Source of the DNA: a virus
Taxonomy: Duplodnaviria > Heunggongvirae > Uroviricota > Caudoviricetes
Direction: 5' to 3' (one strand)
Virus record (IMG/VR): IMGVR_UViG_2563366990_000004
Length of the DNA stretch: 46,456 bases
A model generated the notes under the pieces. The model saw only the letters and a list, made by a program, of their open reading frames with translations, was not told where the DNA came from and did no database searches. The translations under genes were made by a program, and so were the position numbers. Shown piece by piece: positions 4,962 to 46,456 of this stretch (position 1 is its first letter; every line of letters starts with the position of its first letter).

Positions 4962-5446
4962 TATCGTGTCCTCAACAATGAATTTTGTGATGTGGTGCCT
5001 GGTGCCTCCAGGTGACGTTAACCAGTTAACAATTAACGCCGGAATACAGAAGGATGCCCGTTACGCCCCGTAAAAGACCACTTTACGGATTTAACTGTTC
5101 CGCGTGCGCATAGCCGCATTCACCGCATCACAAAATTCACTTTAAAAAGGATGGCAGAGCAGTCATGGAGTCGAACTGATGCCACCAAAGACTACACATG
5201 GATATTGTGGCGGGGCTGTCACTTAAGCGTATGGTCAGCCTGACAACCCGGTGTCCTCAAGGGGAAGGAATAACCCCGCCATACTTACCGCCGCGCCATT
5301 TCGCGGATTGCCACAACCGGAAGCGCACGGTCGAATTAAATTTAACGACAAAGTACAGAGAGACGAGCTTCTCCGTGCGCTTTCGTGTTATGCCCTGACT
5401 TTTCAGGGTAAATTAACCAGTGGCAACCTGTTTTTACTGGTGCTAA

Positions 5447-20556: not shown

Positions 20557-20795
20557 CTCACAATTCAGACGGTTGACAGTTGTCTGTTTTGCGGGGAGTT
20601 TGTTAAAAGAAACTGGCATGGTGAATCCCCCTGAGCGGAGGGGCGACTGGTGCATCAGGTGTTATCTTTGATACCCAGGAAAGTGAACGCGCGGGTTCGG
20701 TGGCACCGGGCTGAACTCACCGGGAGGCACCCGGCACTATGCGCATGATGTACAGATACGCGGCTTCAGCCCCTCTCCGGAGGGGCTTTTCTGTG
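20557..20795 (+). repeat. Repeat unit A (~240 bp) ending in an intrinsic terminator
   Basis: Starts CTCACAATTCAGACGGTTGACAGTTGTCTG; internal hairpin CCCCCTGAGCGGAGGGG; shared block GCGGGTTCGGTGGCACCGGGCTGAACTCACCGGGAGGCACCCGGCA; ends CAGCCCCTCTCCGGAGGGGCTTTTCT. Confidence 0.6.
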
Positions 20796-21042
20796 CCTTA
20801 TGCATCACAGTTTCTGGAACCCTGAGTACTACAGTATCAGTCAGGGTGCTATATTTGCAGATGTGATGAAAGCCTGCCGGCAGGCAGGGCGTATCGGAAA
20901 TGACCCAGTAAGAGAAAACGTTGACTCAGATACCGGTGCTGAGTTACCGGGAAACCGGCATCACATGACCGCTATCCTTCATGGCTCTCTCAGGAGAGCC
21001 TTTTTACTGGAGAAAACCGCTTCCCCGTAAAATGCCGTGTTG

Positions 21043-21282
21043 CTCACAATTCAGTCAGTTGAAGGTTGTCTGCCCGACTGAGAATTTGTTAAAAAATTTC
21101 TGCATGATGAATCCCCCTGTGCGGAGGGGCGGCTGGTGTACGGAATGGTCTCTGATGATCGTTAGCGAGAATGACGCGGGTTCGGTGGCACCGGGCTGAA
21201 CTCACCGGGAGGCACCCGGCATCATGTAATGAACGGTACATAGCGCTACTCTTCAGCCCCTCTCCGGAGGGGCTTTCTTATG
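21043..21282 (+). repeat. Repeat unit B (~240 bp), diverged copy of unit A, ending in an intrinsic terminator
   Basis: CTCACAATTCAGTCAGTTGAAGGTTGTCTG…CCCCCTGTGCGGAGGGG…GCGGGTTCGGTGGCACCGGGCTGAACTCACCGGGAGGCACCCGGCA…CAGCCCCTCTCCGGAGGGGCTTTCTT; a further hairpin with minus-strand terminator polarity at 21290-21315. Confidence 0.6.
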
Positions 21283-21511
21283 GATAAAAAAAGCCCGCAT
21301 GGTGAGATGCGGGCAGCAAGGAATAAACAACAAAACGTGAAGTAATCAATTTTTCAGCTGGCGAATAATACCCGACAGTAATCACTCTGCGCAACTGCGC
21401 GGCCTTTTTCGTATTGCGGGCTGTAGTCTTCCTCCTGCCATTGTCCTGTAACTTCCGGACTTCAGCCCGCCCCTCATCTGACTCACAACATTATCCCGAC
21501 CGGGAGGATTC

Positions 21512-42200: not shown

Positions 42201-42944
42201 ATGACACAGACTGAATCAGCGATTCTGGTGCATGCCCGGCGGTGTGCGCCAGCGGAGTCGTGCGGCTTCGTGATAAGCACCCCGGAGGGCGAACGGTACC
42301 AGCCCTGCATGAATATCTCCGCAGAGCCGGAGGCGTATTTTCGTATTACACCGGAAGACTGGCTGCAGGCACAGATGCAGGGGGAGATTGTGGCGCTGGT
42401 CCACAGTCATCCCGGTGGTCTGCCCTGGCTGAGCGAGGCGGACCGGCGGCTGCAGATAAAGAGTGCCCTGCCCTGGTGGCTGGTCTGCCGGGGTGAAATT
42501 CACCGGTTCCGCTGTGTGCCGCACCTGACCGGACGGCGCTTTGAACACGGTGTGACGGACTGTTACACCCTGTTCCGGGATGCATACCATCTGGCGGGGA
42601 TAACGCTGCCGGATTTTGTGCGTGAGGATGACTGGTGGCGCAACGGCCAGAACCTGTACCTGGACAACCTGGCGGAAAACGGCTTTTACCGGGTGTCTCC
42701 GTCCTGTGCACAGGCGGGCGATATCCTGCTGTGCTGCTTCGGCGCATCGGTGCCGAATCATGCCGCCATTTACTGTGGCAACGGTGAACTGCTTCACCAT
42801 ATACCTGAACAACTGAGTAAACGGGAGAGGTATTCTGAAAAATGGCAACGACGAACGCATTCTGTCTGGCGTCACCGCCACTGGTCCGCATCTGCCTTCA
42901 CGGGGATTTACAACGATTTGGTCGCCGCATCAGCCTGTATGTGA
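42201..42944 (+). CDS. K: Tail assembly protein K (MPN/JAB plus NlpC/P60-like)
   Basis: ATG 42201; …ILVHARRCAPAESCGFVISTPEGERYQPCMNISAEPE…ALVHSHPGGLPWLSEADRR… matches lambda K. The track ORF starting at 41940 is an upstream extension through L and is rejected as the start. Confidence 0.85.
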   Translation: MTQTESAILVHARRCAPAESCGFVISTPEGERYQPCMNISAEPEAYFRITPEDWLQAQMQGEIVALVHSHPGGLPWLSEADRRLQIKSALPWWLVCRGEIHRFRCVPHLTGRRFEHGVTDCYTLFRDAYHLAGITLPDFVREDDWWRNGQNLYLDNLAENGFYRVSPSCAQAGDILLCCFGASVPNHAAIYCGNGELLHHIPEQLSKRERYSEKWQRRTHSVWRHRHWSASAFTGIYNDLVAASACM

Positions 42945-43522
42945 ACACGGCAGCGGAGGCCATCCGTGCCCTGTCGCTGCAGGTGCCGGGATTCCGCTGT
43001 CAGATGAACGAAGGCTGGTATCAGATACGTATTGCCGGTGAGGATACCGCGCCGGAGGCGGTGTATGCCTGTCTTCACGAACAACTGGGTGAGGGAGCGG
43101 TCATCCACATTGTGCCGCGACTGGCCGGAGCCGGGGGAAATGGTGTTTTTCAGGTGGTGCTGGGGGTTGCAGCGATTGTCGGGTCATTTTTCACTGGTGG
43201 TGCAACACTGGCGGCATGGGGCGCAGCCCTGAGTGCCGGAGGGCTGACTGCCACCACGATGCTGTTCTCACTGGGTGCCAGCATGATACTGGGTGGTGTG
43301 GCCCAGATGCTGGCCCCGAAGGCAAAGACGCCGGAGTACAAAAGTACGGATAACGGTAAACAGAACACGTATTTTTCGTCACTGGACAACATGATTGCCC
43401 AGGGTAACCCGATGCCGGTGCCTTACGGTGAAATGCTGGTTGGTTCACGACGGATATCCCAGGACATCAGCACCCGTGATGAGGGCGGAGACGGGAAAGT
43501 GGTGGTTATCGGGCGGGGATAA
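42842..43522 (+). CDS. I: Tail assembly protein I
   Basis: …ARICL.GDLQRFGRRI.L.V.T.AEAIRAL..Q.P.FR…GAVIHIVPR.AGA…GVFQ.VLG.AAI.GSFFT.GATLAAWGAA… matches lambda I. Confidence 0.85.
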   Translation: MATTNAFCLASPPLVRICLHGDLQRFGRRISLYVNTAAEAIRALSLQVPGFRCQMNEGWYQIRIAGEDTAPEAVYACLHEQLGEGAVIHIVPRLAGAGGNGVFQVVLGVAAIVGSFFTGGATLAAWGAALSAGGLTATTMLFSLGASMILGGVAQMLAPKAKTPEYKSTDNGKQNTYFSSLDNMIAQGNPMPVPYGEMLVGSRRISQDISTRDEGGDGKVVVIGRG

Positions 43523-44233
43523 AAATAAAAAAAATCCCGCAGAGTTAGCGGAGCTGCGGGAAATAACGATGAAGATTAACGTTATGGAGTTATTTTTTTG
43601 GGCAGAAAAACATTAACGCAGCGAAATTATAAGCGCTACATGGATTTTGCGAAAATGTGAAGAAATTCAGAAATTTTTTGCTGCAGAGGTGCAGGGAGCT
43701 TGCCGGGTATTTGTGGCAGAAGACAGAAAACATCATGCCGGGGTTAAGGGATAAAAAAATCCCGCAGAGTCCGGAGACTGCGGGACAGAACCGATGAAGA
43801 TTAACGTTCAAGGAGTTTTGTTTTTATTGACCCGAAAAAACTGTAACGCCCCGGAATGATATCTGCCACGGGGACGTACAGAAAATGTGAAGAAATTCAG
43901 ACTTTTTCTGTCGCAGGTTTACAGAACGGATGACCGCCAGGGTACCAGTGGCGTAAATGAGCAGGATGTTGTGGTGTGGCTGAAGCAAAAAAATCTCCCG
44001 TAATATCGCCGGATACTGACGGGAGACGAATAGTCACCTTAAGGAGGTCTGATAATTATTGCTTTTATTGAGCAAAAAAACTGTAACGCTGCGTCATTAT
44101 AGTGGCTACAGGCAATTGCCGGAAATGTGAAGAATTTCAGAAATTTTATTCCGTCATGACACAGGCACCCTCCGGGGTGCCTGTTGTTTTTGGGCATAAA
44201 CAGATTCAGACATCAGACAGGAGAGGGGGACAG
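43523..44233. repeat. Repeat-rich non-coding spacer between tail genes I and J: three diverged direct repeat units with hairpins and a conserved AAATGTGAAGAAATTCAGA block
   Basis: Units at ~43525-43680, ~43750-43900 and ~43985-44155. Each has an A-run plus GC hairpin (AAAAAAATCCCGCAG…CTGCGGG, or AAAAAAATCTCCCGT…ACGGGAGA), AAAAA(A)CTGTAACGC-like block, and AAATGTGAAGAA(A/T)TTCAGA. Units 1 and 2 also share CGATGAAGATTAACGTT. Confidence 0.6.
44163..44195 (+). terminator. Intrinsic terminator immediately upstream of J
   Basis: GGCACCC-TCCG-GGGTGCC hairpin followed by TGTTGTTTTT. Confidence 0.5.
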
Positions 44234-46456
44234 AGTGGGTAAAGGGGGCGGCAAGGGGCACACACCGCGTGAGGCGAAGGACAATCTCAAATCCACGCAG
44301 ATGATGAGCGTGATTGATGCCATTGGTGAGGGACCGGTGGAAGGTCCGGTGAAGGGACTGCAGAGTATTCTGGTGAACAAAACCCCGCTGACGGACACGG
44401 ACGGTAATCCCGTGATACACGGTGTGACCGCCGTCTGGCGTGCCGGGGAGCAGGAGCAGACACCGCCGGAAGGCTTTGAGTCCTCCGGGGCAGAAACCGC
44501 ACTGGGCGTGGAGGTGACGAAGGCAAAGCCGGTGACGCGCACCATCACGTCAGCGAACATTGACCGTCTGCGGGTCACCTTCGGGGTGCAGTCACTGGTG
44601 GAGACCACCTCAAAGGGTGACCGTAATCCCTCTTCTGTCCGCCTGCTGATTCAGCTTGAGCGTAACGGGCACTGGGTGACGGAGAAGGATGTCACCATTA
44701 ACGGCAAGACCACCTCGCAGTACCTGACGTCGGTGATTCTGAATAATCTCCCTGAGCGCCCCTTTAACATCCGGATGGTCAGGGAGACGGCGGACAGCAC
44801 CACGGACCAGCTGCAGAACAGAACGCTGTGGTCGTCATACACCGAAATCATCGATGTGAAACAGTGCTACCCGAACACGGCTATTGTGGGGCTGCAGGTG
44901 GATGCGGAGCAGTTTGGTGGCCAGCAGCTGACGGTGAACTACCATATCCGTGGTCGCATCATTCAGGTGCCGTCAAACTATGACCCGGAAAAACGCACCT
45001 ACAGCGGTATCTGGGACGGCAGTCTGAAACCGGCATACAGCAATAACCCGGCCTGGTGCCTGTGGGACATGCTGACCCACCCGCGCTACGGCATGGGAAA
45101 ACGCCTGGGGGCCGCGGATGTGGACAAGTGGGCACTGTATGCCATCGGGCAGTACTGTGACCAGACGGTCCCGGATGGTTTCGGGGGCACAGAGCCGCGG
45201 ATGACTTTTAATGCGTACCTGTCACAGCAGCGTAAGGTCTGGGATGTCCTGGGGGATTTCTGCTCGGCGATGCGCTGTATGCCGGTATGGAACGGCCAGA
45301 CGCTGACGTTCGTTCAGGACCGCCCGTCGGATGTGGTGTGGCCCTACACCAACAGCGATGTGGTGGTGGATGATAACGGCGTGGGGTTCCGCTACAGCTT
45401 CAGTGCCCTGAAGGACCGGCACACGGCGGTGGAGGTGAATTACACCGACCCGCAGAACGGCTGGCAGACTTCCACGGAACTGGTGGAAGACCCGGACGCC
45501 ATCCTGCGCTACGGGCGCAACCTGCTGAAGATGGATGCGTTCGGCTGTACCAGCCGCGGTCAGGCCCACCGTGCCGGACTGTGGGTGATAAAGACCGAAC
45601 TGCTGGAAACGCAGACGGTGGATTTCACGCTCGGGTCACAGGGGCTGCGTCACACACCCGGTGACATCATTGAAATCTGTGATAACGACTATGCCGGGAC
45701 CCTGACCGGCGGACGCATCCTGTCCATCGATGCCGCCAGCCGTACCCTGACGCTGGACCGTGAGGTGATACTGCTGGAAGCAGGGACATCGATGGTGAAC
45801 CTGATTAACGGCAGCGGTAAGCCGGTGCGCGTGGACATCACTGCACACCCCGCCCCTGACCGGATACAGGTCAGCGCCCTGCCGGATGGCGTGGAGACAT
45901 ACGGTGTGTGGGGACTCTCCCTGCCGTCACTGCGTCGTCGCCTGTTCCGCTGTGTTTCCATCCGGGAAAACACGGACGGTACCTTTGCCATCACGGCGGT
46001 GCAGCATGTGCCGGAAAAAGAAGCCATTGTGGATAACGGGGCCCGCTTTGAGCCGATGTCCGGCTCACTGAACAGCGTCATCCCGCCGGCGGTGCAGCAC
46101 CTTACGGTGGAGGTGAGTGCCTCAGACGGCCAGTATCTGGCACTGGCGAAATGGGACACGCCGCGGGTGGTGAAGGGCGTGCGCTTCAGTCTGCGCCTGA
46201 CCAGCGGAAACGGTGAAAACAGCCGCCTGGTGACCACCGCCATCACTGCCGACACGGAGCACCGTTTCAGTGGCCTGCCTCTGGGGGAATACACCCTGAC
46301 GGTCAGGGCGATAAACAGCTACGGCCAGCAGGGCGAACCTGCCACCACCACGTTCCGGATTAACGCACCGGCAGCACCGGCCAGCATTGAACTGACGCCG
46401 GGGTATTATCAGATAACGGCGGTCCCGCATCTTACGGTGTATGACCCGACGGTACA
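44234..46456 (+). CDS. J: Tail tip/host-specificity protein J (3' end beyond the window)
   Basis: GTG 44234 preceded by GGAGAGGGGG; own translation [39 protein letters not shown]… is collinear with lambda J ([39 protein letters not shown]…) and stays open to the window end. Absent from the track because no stop lies in the window. Confidence 0.9.

What the first reader, a model, noticed from the sequence alone, without database searches (positions are those of the whole stretch)
43523..44233. Three direct repeat units with hairpins and a CRP-like motif in the I-J spacer
Lambda has no spacer between I and J. Here ~0.7 kb of non-coding DNA contains three diverged copies of a ~150-bp unit. Each copy carries an A-run plus GC hairpin that would act as an intrinsic terminator on the minus strand, a conserved AAAAACTGTAACGC-like block, and a conserved AAATGTGAAGAAATTCAGA block resembling a CRP half-site pair (TGTGA-N6-TCAGA). 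Units 1 and 2 also share CGATGAAGATTAACGTT, which could start tiny peptides (MKINV…). A plus-strand terminator sits just before J. This looks like an array of small transcription units, most simply small RNAs antisense to the late operon.
Basis: seen in the sequence. Interest (0 to 1): 0.7.

Follow-up and report, generated by a model that had tools for sequence, protein, structure and literature searches.

The report
Three tandem PasB-type prophage sRNA genes
The 0.7-kb gap between tail genes I and J holds three diverged tandem copies of a known Hfq-dependent prophage small-RNA gene (PasB in EPEC, EcOnc22-24 in EHEC), so the kind is known and only the tandem arrangement and a conserved promoter motif look undescribed.

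Summary
The I-J spacer (43523-44234) holds three diverged direct units spaced 230 and 240 bp apart, not about 150 bp.

Each unit is a complete minus-strand transcription unit. It has a 16-bp dyad (TCTGA-N6-TCACA on the minus strand), a sigma-70 promoter with its -10 hexamer 24 bp after the dyad, a 93-103-nt RNA and a Rho-independent terminator.

The units are homologues of PasB, an 83-nt Hfq-dependent sRNA shown by Northern blot and RIL-seq in EPEC E2348/69. It sits in the same I-J spacer on the same antisense strand. The Hfq-CRAC sRNAs EcOnc22/23/24 of EHEC Sakai (about 85 nt, destabilised without hfq) map to the same spacer.

About a third of complete E. coli genomes carry such a unit, always at the I/J junction. 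Most have one unit; arrays of two, three or four are rare.

The tiny-peptide idea is not: the ATG is present in only 29 of 60 unit variants. The CRP idea is unresolved. The dyad is the best-conserved promoter element, but one half-site is non-consensus and it sits at -44.5 or -59.5, not at a canonical CRP position.

This is a new arrangement of a known kind, of moderate interest.

The parts
42842..43522 (+). Tail assembly gene I. The stop codon TAA is at 43520-43522. The first repeat unit begins 9 nt inside this gene, at 43514.
   Evidence: ORF list; Pfam Lambda_tail_I, 2.1e-15; RefSeq annotation 'tail assembly protein' under the matches; repeat D3 at 43514-43545 / 43739-43770.
43527..43619 (-). 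sRNA gene 1 (PasB / EcOnc22 type). The predicted primary transcript is 93 nt, from G at 43619 to the end of the U-run at 43527. The terminator hairpin is at 43535-43561. By homology with the EPEC 5' end, a shorter form would start near 43604.
   Evidence: Coordinates; nhmmer hit 43619-43528, E=8e-20 against the window alone and 2.8e-18 against all loci; fold with 3' hairpin plus U8, z=-2.6; terminator scan; 77% identical to E2348/69 PasB and 88% to the Sakai Sp15 EcOnc22-locus RNA.
43626..43653 (-). Promoter of gene 1: -35 TTCGCA (43653..43648), 16-bp spacer, -10 TATAAT (43631..43626).
   Evidence: Promoter scan, 10 of 12 matches; the -10 lies 24 nt after the dyad in 60 of 63 unique family members.
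43656..43671 (.). Dyad 1: TGTGA-AGAAAT-TCAGA on the plus strand, TCTGA-N6-TCACA on the minus strand. It abuts the -35 hexamer. Its centre is at -44.5 from the predicted start.
43753..43849 (-). sRNA gene 2. The predicted transcript is 97 nt. The terminator hairpin is at 43760-43785, followed by U7.
   Evidence: nhmmer hit 43849-43753, E=1.9e-19; fold; 78% identical to PasB and 80% to gene 1. The same variant is the only unit in many prophages (U2).
43856..43901 (-). Promoter and dyad of gene 2: dyad at 43886-43901, weak -35 TTCTGT (43883..43878), -10 TATCAT (43861..43856).
43987..44089 (-). sRNA gene 3, a diverged subtype. The predicted transcript is 103 nt. It has a longer terminator hairpin at 43994-44026 and a different single-stranded region (…CCUCCUUAAGGUGACUAUUCGU…).
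   Evidence: nhmmer hit 44089-43989, E=3.9e-13; fold -25.2 kcal/mol, z=-3.0; 69% identical to PasB, 64% to gene 1 and 67% to gene 2.
44096..44141 (-). Promoter and dyad of gene 3: dyad at 44126-44141, poor -35 (TCCGGC, 44123..44118), -10 TATAAT (44101..44096).
44161..44194 (+). Plus-strand intrinsic terminator-like hairpin (10-bp stem, T-run) just upstream of J. It is ancestral to the I-J junction and is degenerate in the internal units 1 and 2.
   Evidence: Terminator scan. It is conserved in single-unit spacers, with a change on both sides of the stem (GGCACCC/GGGTGCC versus GGCATCC/GGATGCC). A comparable hairpin sits in the 60-bp lambda-type spacers.
44235..46456 (+). Tail tip / host specificity gene J. 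It starts with GTG and runs off the end of the window.
   Evidence: Sequence; Pfam FNIII-A_GpJ, 3.6e-41; RefSeq 'gpJ' annotation.

Best explanation
The spacer is a tandem array of three diverged paralogues of the prophage sRNA gene known as pasB in EPEC and EcOnc22/23/24 in EHEC.

Each unit is an autonomous insert transcribed against the late operon. Reading on the minus strand, a unit contains an AT-rich stretch with a conserved 16-bp dyad, a sigma-70 promoter, an RNA of about 93-103 nt, and a Rho-independent terminator next to the end of I. The RNA has a U-rich 5' end, an A-rich (ARN-like) stretch and a conserved single-stranded CUCC(A/U)U…UUAAUCUUC region.

In a lysogen the late operon is silent, and these genes would be expressed from their own promoters. 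The RNAs would bind Hfq and regulate host and accessory-genome mRNAs in trans by base pairing. Genes 1 and 2 share the putative seed. Gene 3 carries a different one, so the array probably widens the target range.

The array arose by duplication of a whole I-J intergenic module. The plus-strand hairpin before J is an older feature of the junction that Q-modified polymerase would read through.

Shown here: homology, synteny, strand, and promoter and terminator signals. Shown by others on orthologues: expression, size, Hfq dependence and RNA partners. Inferred: expression of all three copies here, the start site, seed function, and any control through the dyad.
For: Homology and synteny
- The E2348/69 PasB locus (NC_011601, minus strand, 1466343..1466261, 83 nt; the Northern probe matches window 43525-43547) is a single-unit 240-bp I-J spacer that aligns with each window unit.
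- A profile of 38 family members hits the window exactly three times, all on the minus strand.

Experimental support on orthologues
- PasB gave a Northern band of the size predicted from RNA-seq coverage, its stability depends on Hfq, and its level falls in the hfq mutant (log2 change -6.8 and -2.4). It has 37 RIL-seq interactions.
- Sakai EcOnc22 is about 85 nt on Northern and is destabilised without hfq. With EcOnc23 and EcOnc24, it maps to the I-J spacers of Sp15, Sp14 and Sp11, on the strand opposite to I and J (coordinate offset calibrated).

Signals in the window
- Unit 1 has TTCGCA-16-TATAAT.
- The -10 hexamer lies at a fixed 24 nt from the dyad in 60 of 63 variants. It reads TATAAT in 31, AATAAT in 16 and TATCAT in 8.
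- All three units have a terminator hairpin followed by a U-run.

Distribution
- 1842 of 5426 complete E. coli genomes have a match. All listed matches lie at the I/J junction.
- Across the fetched loci there are 188 single units, 8 doubles, 4 triples and 1 quadruple.
- The internal units keep the dyad and promoter but lose the plus-strand hairpin, which ties the dyad to the sRNA promoter rather than to the J leader.
Against: - No expression data exist for this array or strain.
- Units 2 and 3 have poor -35 hexamers. In two-unit arrays the unit-3-type copy has lost its -10 hexamer (it reads AACCTT), so some copies in the family are decaying.
- The 5' end seen in EPEC (1466343/4; no RIL-seq fragment lies beyond it) is 15 nt downstream of the start predicted from the TATAAT promoter. 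Either the RNA is processed or the start site is elsewhere.
- Covariation support is thin. The terminator stem is almost invariant, with one double compensatory variant (L008), and RNAalifold found no consensus on the MAFFT alignment.
- PasB is not in Rfam, so no curated model confirms membership.
Confidence: 0.85

Rival explanations
1. The array is mostly evolutionary debris. One unit, probably unit 1 (the EcOnc22-like copy), is a working sRNA gene. The others are decaying duplicates left by unequal recombination between I-J spacers, with no separate function.
For: Units 2 and 3 have weak -35 hexamers. In two-unit arrays (L003, L060, L080) the unit-3-type copy has a destroyed -10 hexamer and an altered 5' end. 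Multi-unit arrays are rare: 13 of 201 loci with a hit, 18 genomes by megablast, and none of 50,697 phage records holds at least 80% of the three-unit array.
Against: In the window all three units keep the exact dyad and a -10 hexamer with A at position 2 and T at position 6. All three also keep a purine at the predicted start and a strong terminator. The unit-2 variant is the only unit in many prophages, so it is presumably functional on its own. A four-unit array (L056) also keeps the dyad half-sites in all four units.
Confidence: 0.25
2. The main role is in cis. The antisense RNAs, or their convergent transcription, act on the late I-J mRNA. They might trigger RNase III cleavage between I and J, or collide with late transcription, and so tune J (host-range protein) expression.
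For: The RNAs are perfectly complementary to the I-J intercistronic part of the late transcript (direct from the sequence). Their position is fixed at this junction in all listed genomes.
Against: PasB in EPEC forms Hfq-dependent chimeras with many trans-encoded RNAs, including the pasA-adjacent IGR (774 chimeras), E2348C_2648, bfpB and caiF. The same junction also accepts an unrelated insert, sodC, which replaces the sRNA promoter. That argues the junction is simply a permissive insertion site. Lambda manages without any such RNA.
Confidence: 0.12
3. The units encode tiny plus-strand peptides (MKINV…) translated from the late mRNA.
For: ATG-initiated ORFs of 15-21 codons exist in units 1 and 2. 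A GGGA sits 7-8 nt upstream of the ATG.
Against: Only 29 of 60 unique unit variants have ATG at that position; 19 have ACG and 8 have GAC. Where the ATG exists, the peptides differ by frameshifts and range from 11 to 24 residues. Conservation is at the nucleotide level, on the RNA strand.
Confidence: 0.03
4. The units are generic intergenic repeats of the host genome (REP/BIME/ERIC-like) that happen to lie here.
For: None beyond their repetitive nature.
Against: All listed matches, from 5659 places in 1842 genomes, lie under 'tail assembly protein' and/or 'gpJ'. There is no other copy elsewhere in the 46-kb window.
Confidence: 0.01

Closest known systems
PasB (pathogenicity-associated sRNA B) of EPEC E2348/69 prophage PP6. 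Sources: Pearl Mizrahi et al. 2021, PMC8550237; Zhu, Shabalina and Storz 2026 preprint, 10.64898/2026.05.13.724894.
   Same: Same locus (I-J spacer) and same strand (antisense to I and J). The promoter, dyad and terminator are homologous. RNA identity is 77%, 78% and 69% for genes 1, 2 and 3. PasB is Hfq-dependent, validated by Northern blot and found in RIL-seq.
   Different: E2348/69 and most genomes have one unit in a roughly 240-bp spacer. Here three diverged paralogues lie in tandem. Gene 3 has a different putative seed and a longer terminator. In a term search, the preprint never uses the words CRP or promoter, and uses 'tandem' only for pasA/pasD copies and a cited reference, never for PasB; it states that typically a single PasB variant is present per genome.
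EcOnc22 / EcOnc23 / EcOnc24 of EHEC O157:H7 Sakai prophages Sp15 (Stx1), Sp14 and Sp11. Sources: Tree et al. 2014, PMC4104026, Table S2; listed with 'unknown' target in review PMC7873438.
   Same: The Hfq-CRAC peaks lie in the 240-bp I-J spacers, on the strand opposite to I and J. EcOnc22 is about 85 nt on Northern and is destabilised without hfq. The Sp15 RNA is 88% identical to gene 1 of the window, with nearly the same seed and terminator.
   Different: There is a single unit per prophage. Placing the peak on the PasB-type RNA itself is my inference, from coordinates after a version offset of about +140 bp calibrated on AgvB1. The PasB row fetched from Table S6 carries no EcOnc homologue note, unlike the PasA and PasD rows, and only one held paper other than Tree 2014 mentions EcOnc22; the full texts were not read for this.
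Other lambdoid-prophage sRNAs inserted as autonomous units: AgvB/AsxR/EcOnc03, PasA/PasC, PasD/STnc100, HnrS and DicF.
   Same: They are autonomous promoter-sRNA-terminator units inserted in prophage operons. They are Hfq-associated and act on host or accessory mRNAs or sRNAs.
   Different: They sit at different loci. AgvB and AsxR lie downstream of PR'. HnrS lies between the lysis and terminase genes. There is no sequence similarity: Rfam finds STnc100 (two copies), sok and DicF elsewhere in the window but nothing in the spacer.
Tandemly duplicated sRNA genes such as OmrA/OmrB and PrrF1/PrrF2 (both named as duplicated sRNAs in the Zhu et al. discussion) and LhrC1-5 of Listeria (from my own knowledge).
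   Same: Head-to-tail paralogues, each with its own promoter and terminator. The ends are conserved and the central regions have diverged.
   Different: Those are chromosomal core or species-level loci with known regulators (for example OmpR or Fur). This array is phage-borne, lies inside a structural operon on the opposite strand, and varies from one to four units between prophages.
CRP (cAMP receptor protein) operator, consensus AAATGTGATCTAGATCACATTT (textbook knowledge).
   Same: The dyad is TGTGA-N6-TCAGA. The left half, AAATGTGA, is perfect and the spacing is N6. Variation in the family is almost confined to the N6 spacer. There are AT-rich flanks.
   Different: The second half-site is invariantly TCAGA, with G where CRP prefers C. 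The centre lies at -44.5 from the predicted start, or -59.5 from the EPEC 5' end, not at -41.5 or -61.5. No binding data exist.

Membership tests
PasB / EcOnc22-24 prophage sRNA family | Sequence homology to the validated E2348/69 PasB RNA and its promoter region | tested here: met
   Alignment A2. Identity is 77%, 78% and 69%. The nhmmer profile gives E=2.8e-18, 6.7e-18 and 1.3e-11. The PasB Northern probe matches 43525-43547 (one search compared).
PasB / EcOnc22-24 prophage sRNA family | Location between tail genes I and J of a lambdoid prophage, transcribed antisense to them | tested here: met
   Flanking genes verified by Pfam and by RefSeq annotation. All three hits are on the minus strand.
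PasB / EcOnc22-24 prophage sRNA family | Own sigma-70 promoter and Rho-independent terminator (an autonomous transcription unit) | tested here: met
   Unit 1 passes the promoter and terminator scans. Units 2 and 3 have -10 hexamers TATCAT and TATAAT at the family's fixed spacing, but weak -35 hexamers. Hairpins followed by U7-8 are present in all three.
PasB / EcOnc22-24 prophage sRNA family | Expressed as an RNA of about 80-90 nt whose stability depends on Hfq, and which pairs with mRNAs on Hfq | not testable with these tools
   Shown only for the orthologues: EPEC PasB and Sakai EcOnc22.
Rfam-curated sRNA families | A match at or above a family's gathering score | tested here: not met
   No family reaches its gathering score in the spacer. 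The best weak hit is STnc560 (the ydeI/ydeE locus; MgrR by my knowledge) on the plus strand: 18.9 bits against a threshold of 55, E=0.18. I judge it chance.
CRP-dependent promoter | A 22-bp site matching TGTGA-N6-TCACA | tested here: inconclusive
   9 of 10 core positions match. One half-site is perfect and the other is invariantly TCAGA. No position weight matrix was available, so the comparison is with the textbook consensus only.
CRP-dependent promoter | Site centred at -41.5 (class II) or at -61.5, -71.5 and so on (class I) | tested here: not met
   The centre is at -44.5 from the start predicted from the TATAAT promoter. It is at -59.5 from the EPEC RNA 5' end. The start site is not mapped, so this result is provisional.
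CRP-dependent promoter | CRP-cAMP binding and cAMP- or glucose-dependent expression | not testable with these tools
   Evidence is circumstantial only. PasB is higher in the condition where Spf, an sRNA repressed by CRP (textbook knowledge), is about 5-fold lower. SdsR and FnrS also rise in that condition, so other regulators fit equally well.
Small plus-strand protein gene | Start codon and reading frame conserved across homologues | tested here: not met
   ATG is present in 29 of 60 unique variants, and the peptides are frameshifted and vary in length.

The most novel reading that the evidence does not exclude
The I-J junction of these lambdoid prophages may be an expandable sRNA cassette site. 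Whole modules of dyad, promoter, sRNA and terminator duplicate, giving one to four copies, and their seeds diverge. All copies stay under one shared CRP/FNR-type operator placed at a fixed distance from the promoter. A lysogen would then gain a small set of Hfq sRNAs that respond to nutrient state. Copy number and target range would differ between otherwise similar prophages, and the RNAs might also act as antisense on the I-J late mRNA.
Probability: 0.2. Interest if true: 0.55.

Novelty: new variant of a known kind. Interest (0 to 1): 0.38.

Why it matters
PasB-type genes sit in prophages of about a third of complete E. coli genomes, and in STEC often in several prophages at once. Their regulator is not reported, and no target had been assigned to EcOnc22 in a 2021 review.

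This analysis adds four things:
- It links two separately named experimental sRNAs, PasB and EcOnc22-24, to one family and one locus.
- It shows that the locus can hold tandem arrays of diverged paralogues. BLAST-based surveys that require 75% query coverage would probably undercount these; I did not test this.
- It pins down a strictly conserved dyad at a fixed distance from the promoter, a concrete handle for finding the regulator (CRP or another).
- It shows that the same junction alternatively carries a sodC insert that displaces the sRNA promoter.

None of this overturns current views of prophage sRNAs. It is a useful annotation and a testable regulatory lead.

Tried and rejected
- **Rfam.** Nothing reaches a gathering score in the spacer. 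The weak STnc560 hit (18.9 bits, E=0.18) is to the ydeI/ydeE locus RNA (MgrR by my knowledge), and I rejected it as chance.
- **AgvB idea.** A CACAACA-like stretch lies on the minus strand at about 43960-43975. I rejected this idea because AgvB lies downstream of PR', has a different sequence, and gives no Rfam hit here. The stretch also falls outside the predicted RNAs.
- **HnrS (EcOnc10-12).** I checked it because it is a multicopy sRNA in the late genes. It lies between the lysis and terminase genes, so it is a different locus.
- **RNAalifold.** On the MAFFT alignment of 38 family RNAs it returned no consensus structure, because the terminator arms are misaligned by loop-length variation. 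I listed the hairpins one by one instead. The stem is nearly invariant, so covariation says little.
- **Start-site data.** The supplements of the Sakai dRNA-seq paper and the HnrS paper are not held. Only RIL-seq fragment ends were available.
- **Remnants of I inside the array.** blastn-short gave only 7-8-nt matches, E of 0.4 or worse. The claim that units reach into I rests on the 32-nt repeat D3.
- **Literature search by gene context** (tail assembly, host specificity, sRNA) found nothing relevant.
- **No covariance model was built.** The nhmmer profile already separated the three copies cleanly from the rest of the window.
Full report
**1. What is in the sequence**

The gap between the stop codon of I (43520-43522) and the GTG start of J (44235) is 712 bp. 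The flanking genes are a lambda-type tail assembly protein I (Pfam Lambda_tail_I) and the tail tip protein J (FNIII-A_GpJ).

The repeat finder reports a single family of three direct copies of a 116-nt core, spaced 230 and 240 bp apart and 64-72% identical to the reference copy. A three-way alignment has 71% mean column identity. The 19-mer AAATGTGAAGANNTTCAGA occurs three times in the 46-kb window, all in the spacer, against 0.14 expected by chance. A 17-mer is identical in units 1 and 2.

The plus-strand terminator-like hairpin before J is at 44161-44184 plus its T-run. The true period is 230-240 bp, and the repeat reaches 9 nt into I (D3). Each unit is therefore a copy of a whole I-J intergenic region.

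**2. Identity**

Rfam has nothing in the spacer at gathering score. Elsewhere in the window it finds two STnc100 copies, sok and DicF. The best weak hit in the spacer is STnc560 at 18.9 bits, which I take as chance.

The literature gave the decisive lead. Pearl Mizrahi et al. (PMC8550237, Table S6) describe PasB. It is an 83-nt sRNA of EPEC E2348/69 at NC_011601 1466343..1466261 on the minus strand, between E2348C_1436 and E2348C_1437 in a '(> <) >' arrangement, with probe AATCCCGCAGTGATCGCGGAGCT. That probe matches the window's plus strand at 43525-43547.

I fetched the EPEC locus. It is a single-unit 240-bp spacer between 'tail assembly protein' and 'gpJ', and it aligns along its whole length with each of the three window units. 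A profile of 38 family members hits the window exactly three times, all on the minus strand: 43619-43528, 43849-43753 and 44089-43989.

**3. A second, independent experimental link**

Table S2 of Tree et al. 2014 lists EcOnc22 in Sp15, the Stx1 prophage of EHEC Sakai. It is about 85 nt on Northern and destabilised without hfq. Its listed homologues are EcOnc23 (Sp14) and EcOnc24 (Sp11).

In NC_002695.2 all three Hfq-CRAC peaks fall in the 240-bp spacers between 'host specificity protein' and 'tail assembly protein', on the opposite strand. I calibrated the coordinate shift between genome versions on AgvB1 and found about +140 bp. With that shift, the EcOnc22 peak lies on the PasB-type RNA itself.

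The Sp15 RNA is 88% identical to gene 1 of the window. A 2021 review lists the EcOnc22 target as unknown. The PasB row fetched from the EPEC paper's Table S6 carries no EcOnc homologue note, unlike the PasA and PasD rows. The equivalence PasB = EcOnc22-24 is thus my inference from coordinates and sequence.

**4. Anatomy of a unit, read on the minus strand**

In order, a unit contains:
- an AT-rich stretch with the dyad TCTGA-N6-TCACA;
- a -35 hexamer two bases after the dyad;
- a 16-bp spacer;
- a -10 hexamer exactly 24 nt after the dyad in 60 of 63 unique family members (TATAAT in 31, AATAAT in 16, TATCAT in 8);
- a conserved GCGUUA start followed by a U-run;
- an A-rich stretch;
- a conserved CUCC(A/U)U…UUAAUCUUC single-stranded region;
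- a CCCGCAG/CTGCGGG hairpin and U7-8.

Window coordinates:

| Gene | Predicted RNA | Length | -35 | -10 | Dyad |
|---|---|---|---|---|---|
| 1 | 43619→43527 | 93 nt | TTCGCA | TATAAT | 43656-43671 |
| 2 | 43849→43753 | 97 nt | TTCTGT | TATCAT | 43886-43901 |
| 3 | 44089→43987 | 103 nt | poor (TCCGGC) | TATAAT | 44126-44141 |

Genes 1 and 2 are 80% identical and share the putative seed. Gene 3 is 64-67% identical to them, with a different single-stranded region and a longer terminator.

The 'ATTATA' next to it is the -10 hexamer.

**5. The start site is not settled**

The TATAAT promoter predicts a primary RNA of 98 nt in EPEC. The annotated 5' end there is 15 nt further downstream, and no RIL-seq fragment extends beyond 1466344. 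The roughly 85-nt Sakai band lies between the predicted primary transcript (91 nt) and the shorter form (about 76 nt).

I favour initiation at the conserved purine followed by 5' trimming in the U-run. This is inferred. The alternative is a weak TAnnnT promoter without a -35 hexamer, initiating on a U.

**6. Family and distribution**

A scan of viral contigs for the motif gave 121 loci. Loci found through the I protein, independently of the motif, gave 91 I-J junctions. Their spacer classes were:

| Spacer length | Content | Number of junctions |
|---|---|---|
| 59-60 bp | lambda type, with a plus-strand hairpin before J | 28 |
| 235-260 bp | one unit | 38 |
| about 340 bp | one unit plus an extra hairpin | 4 |
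| 421-425 bp | two units | 3 |
| 714-715 bp | one three-unit array (L159); one Citrobacter locus (L147) with a minus-strand ORF read by eye as sodC-like and no PasB | 2 |
| 848-851 bp | sRNA body and terminator retained, promoter and dyad replaced by a minus-strand Cu/Zn superoxide dismutase gene | 16 |

The window's own three-unit spacer is 712 bp, and locus L056 from the motif scan holds four units in 914 bp. Sources for this table are.

The profile search counts 188 single, 8 double, 4 triple and 1 quadruple locus. This count includes duplicate fetches of the same contigs.

In complete E. coli genomes, 1842 of 5426 have a match. Every listed match lies under I and/or J. Only 18 genomes carry a near-identical three-unit array. 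No phage record holds at least 80% of it, and 147 phage records, mostly Stx-converting phages, carry matching units. RefSeq annotates nothing in the spacer. The 'generic host repeat' refutation is therefore not met.

**7. The dyad**

I anchored units on the terminator, independently of the motif. In that set, 34 of 38 unique units have the exact TCTGA-N6-TCACA. The four without it are the sodC class. Per-column information shows that the dyad and its AAAA/TTT flanks are the most conserved part of the promoter region, more so than the -35 or -10 hexamers. Variation is essentially confined to the N6 spacer.

Three of the four units of L056 were not selected by my search pattern, and all three keep both half-sites. 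Internal units of arrays keep the dyad but let the plus-strand hairpin decay. The dyad therefore belongs to the sRNA promoter, not to the J leader.

Is it a CRP site? One half (AAATGTGA) is perfect. The other is invariantly TCAGA. The centre is at -44.5 from the predicted start, or -59.5 from the EPEC 5' end. Neither is a canonical activating position.

Circumstantially, PasB is higher in the 'non-activating' condition. The CRP-repressed sRNA Spf is about 5-fold lower there. However, SdsR and FnrS also rise in that condition. I put CRP at roughly 0.3. The alternatives are another CRP/FNR-type or Cra-like protein (the core also reads TGAA-N4-TTCA), or an UP element combined with an operator.

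**8. What it does**

For the orthologues the following are shown:
- Expression and size, by Northern blot.
- Loss of the RNA in hfq mutants (log2 change -6.8 and -2.4).
- 37 RIL-seq interactions, with partners in the core genome, other prophages and the bfp operon.

By homology, the window encodes three Hfq-dependent, trans-acting base-pairing sRNAs expressed from the prophage independently of the late operon. The A-rich (ARN-like) stretch plus the 3' U-run fits Hfq binding on two faces. [quoted passage not shown] That gene 3 extends the target range is inference. A cis antisense effect on the I-J late mRNA cannot be excluded.

**9. Rejected readings**

- The plus-strand MKINV ORF has an ATG in only 29 of 60 variants, and the peptides are frameshifted.
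- AgvB and HnrS are at other prophage positions.
- Covariation support is weak. The stem hardly varies, although loops range from 4 to 16 nt around a fixed stem and one variant (L008) carries a double compensatory change.

**10. Verdict**

This is a real feature, correctly read by the first stage as an sRNA array. It belongs to a known, experimentally supported family. Four points look undescribed in the literature I could search:
- the tandem three-gene arrangement with a diverged third paralogue;
- the equivalence of PasB and EcOnc22-24;
- the fixed-position dyad;
- the sodC replacement variant.

Interest is moderate.

Noticed in passing
window 20587-20796 and 21073-21285 (+): Two STnc100 sRNA copies (141.8 and 164.6 bits) lie 486 bp apart, start to start, on the same strand. 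This is a second pair of closely spaced sRNA paralogues in the same prophage. The Zhu et al. preprint relates STnc100 to PasD.
   Followed up: no
window 13916-14088 (+) and 5149-5200 (-): There is a sok antitoxin RNA match (110.8 bits), which implies a hok/sok-type module in the prophage. There is also a DicF match that only just passes its threshold (48.9 bits against 48).
   Followed up: no
L191:1687-2539 and 15 other I-anchored loci (848-851-bp spacers); also L147 (Citrobacter meridianamericanus): In these prophages the I-J junction carries a minus-strand Cu/Zn superoxide dismutase gene (Pfam Sod_Cu, 3.9e-32) with its own terminator. It replaces the dyad and promoter of the sRNA. The sRNA body and terminator remain downstream, with the junction just upstream of GTTAATG. 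Whether that remnant is still expressed, for example by read-through from sodC, is unknown. L147 has what I read by eye as a sodC-like ORF in a lambda-type spacer, with no sRNA.
   Followed up: partly
L056:315-1230: A four-unit array fills a 914-bp spacer. All four units keep the TGTGA-N6-TCAGA half-sites with different N6 spacers (ATAAAC, AGAAAA, ATAAAT, AGAATT).
   Followed up: partly
L051 (minus orientation, just after the dyad): The homology breaks a few bases after the dyad and is replaced by what looks like an insertion-sequence end with a transposase-like ORF start (…GGTAAACAGGATGACTAAAAATACACG…). This appears to be an IS insertion that disrupts the sRNA promoter.
   Followed up: no
L125-L146 and similar loci (59-60-bp spacers): Many contigs assigned to unrelated organisms (Pseudomonas, Shewanella, Bradyrhizobium and others) carry an identical lambda-type I-J junction on contigs of about 48.4-48.5 kb or on low-coverage contigs. 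This looks like phage lambda contamination of those assemblies. The 60-bp spacer already holds a plus-strand hairpin (AAACCGCCTGCGGGCGGTTTTGTC) before J.
   Followed up: partly
L193, L196, L212, L213 (340-342-bp spacers): These are single-unit spacers in which the usual plus-strand hairpin is replaced. In its place is a different, symmetric hairpin (AAACCCCGGTATCTGCTGATACCGGGGTTT) flanked by A- and T-rich runs, which looks bidirectional, followed by a different J leader.
   Followed up: no
window 43960-43975 (minus strand CCACACCACAACATCC): A CACAACA-like stretch, the GcvB R1 target consensus cited by Tree et al., lies in the linker between units 2 and 3. It is outside the predicted RNAs and would be transcribed only by read-through of the gene 3 terminator.
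   Followed up: partly
NC_002695.2 compared with the coordinates in Tree et al. 2014, Table S2: Sakai coordinates in the 2014 table are offset by about +139 to +143 bp from the current RefSeq version at 1.94 Mb, calibrated on AgvB1. Anyone mapping EcOnc peaks onto NC_002695.2 needs to apply this correction.
   Followed up: yes
L088:1653-1703 (-): A second, weak and partial PasB-type profile hit (E=8e-6) lies 3.3 kb from the main unit in the same locus. I did not examine it.
   Followed up: no
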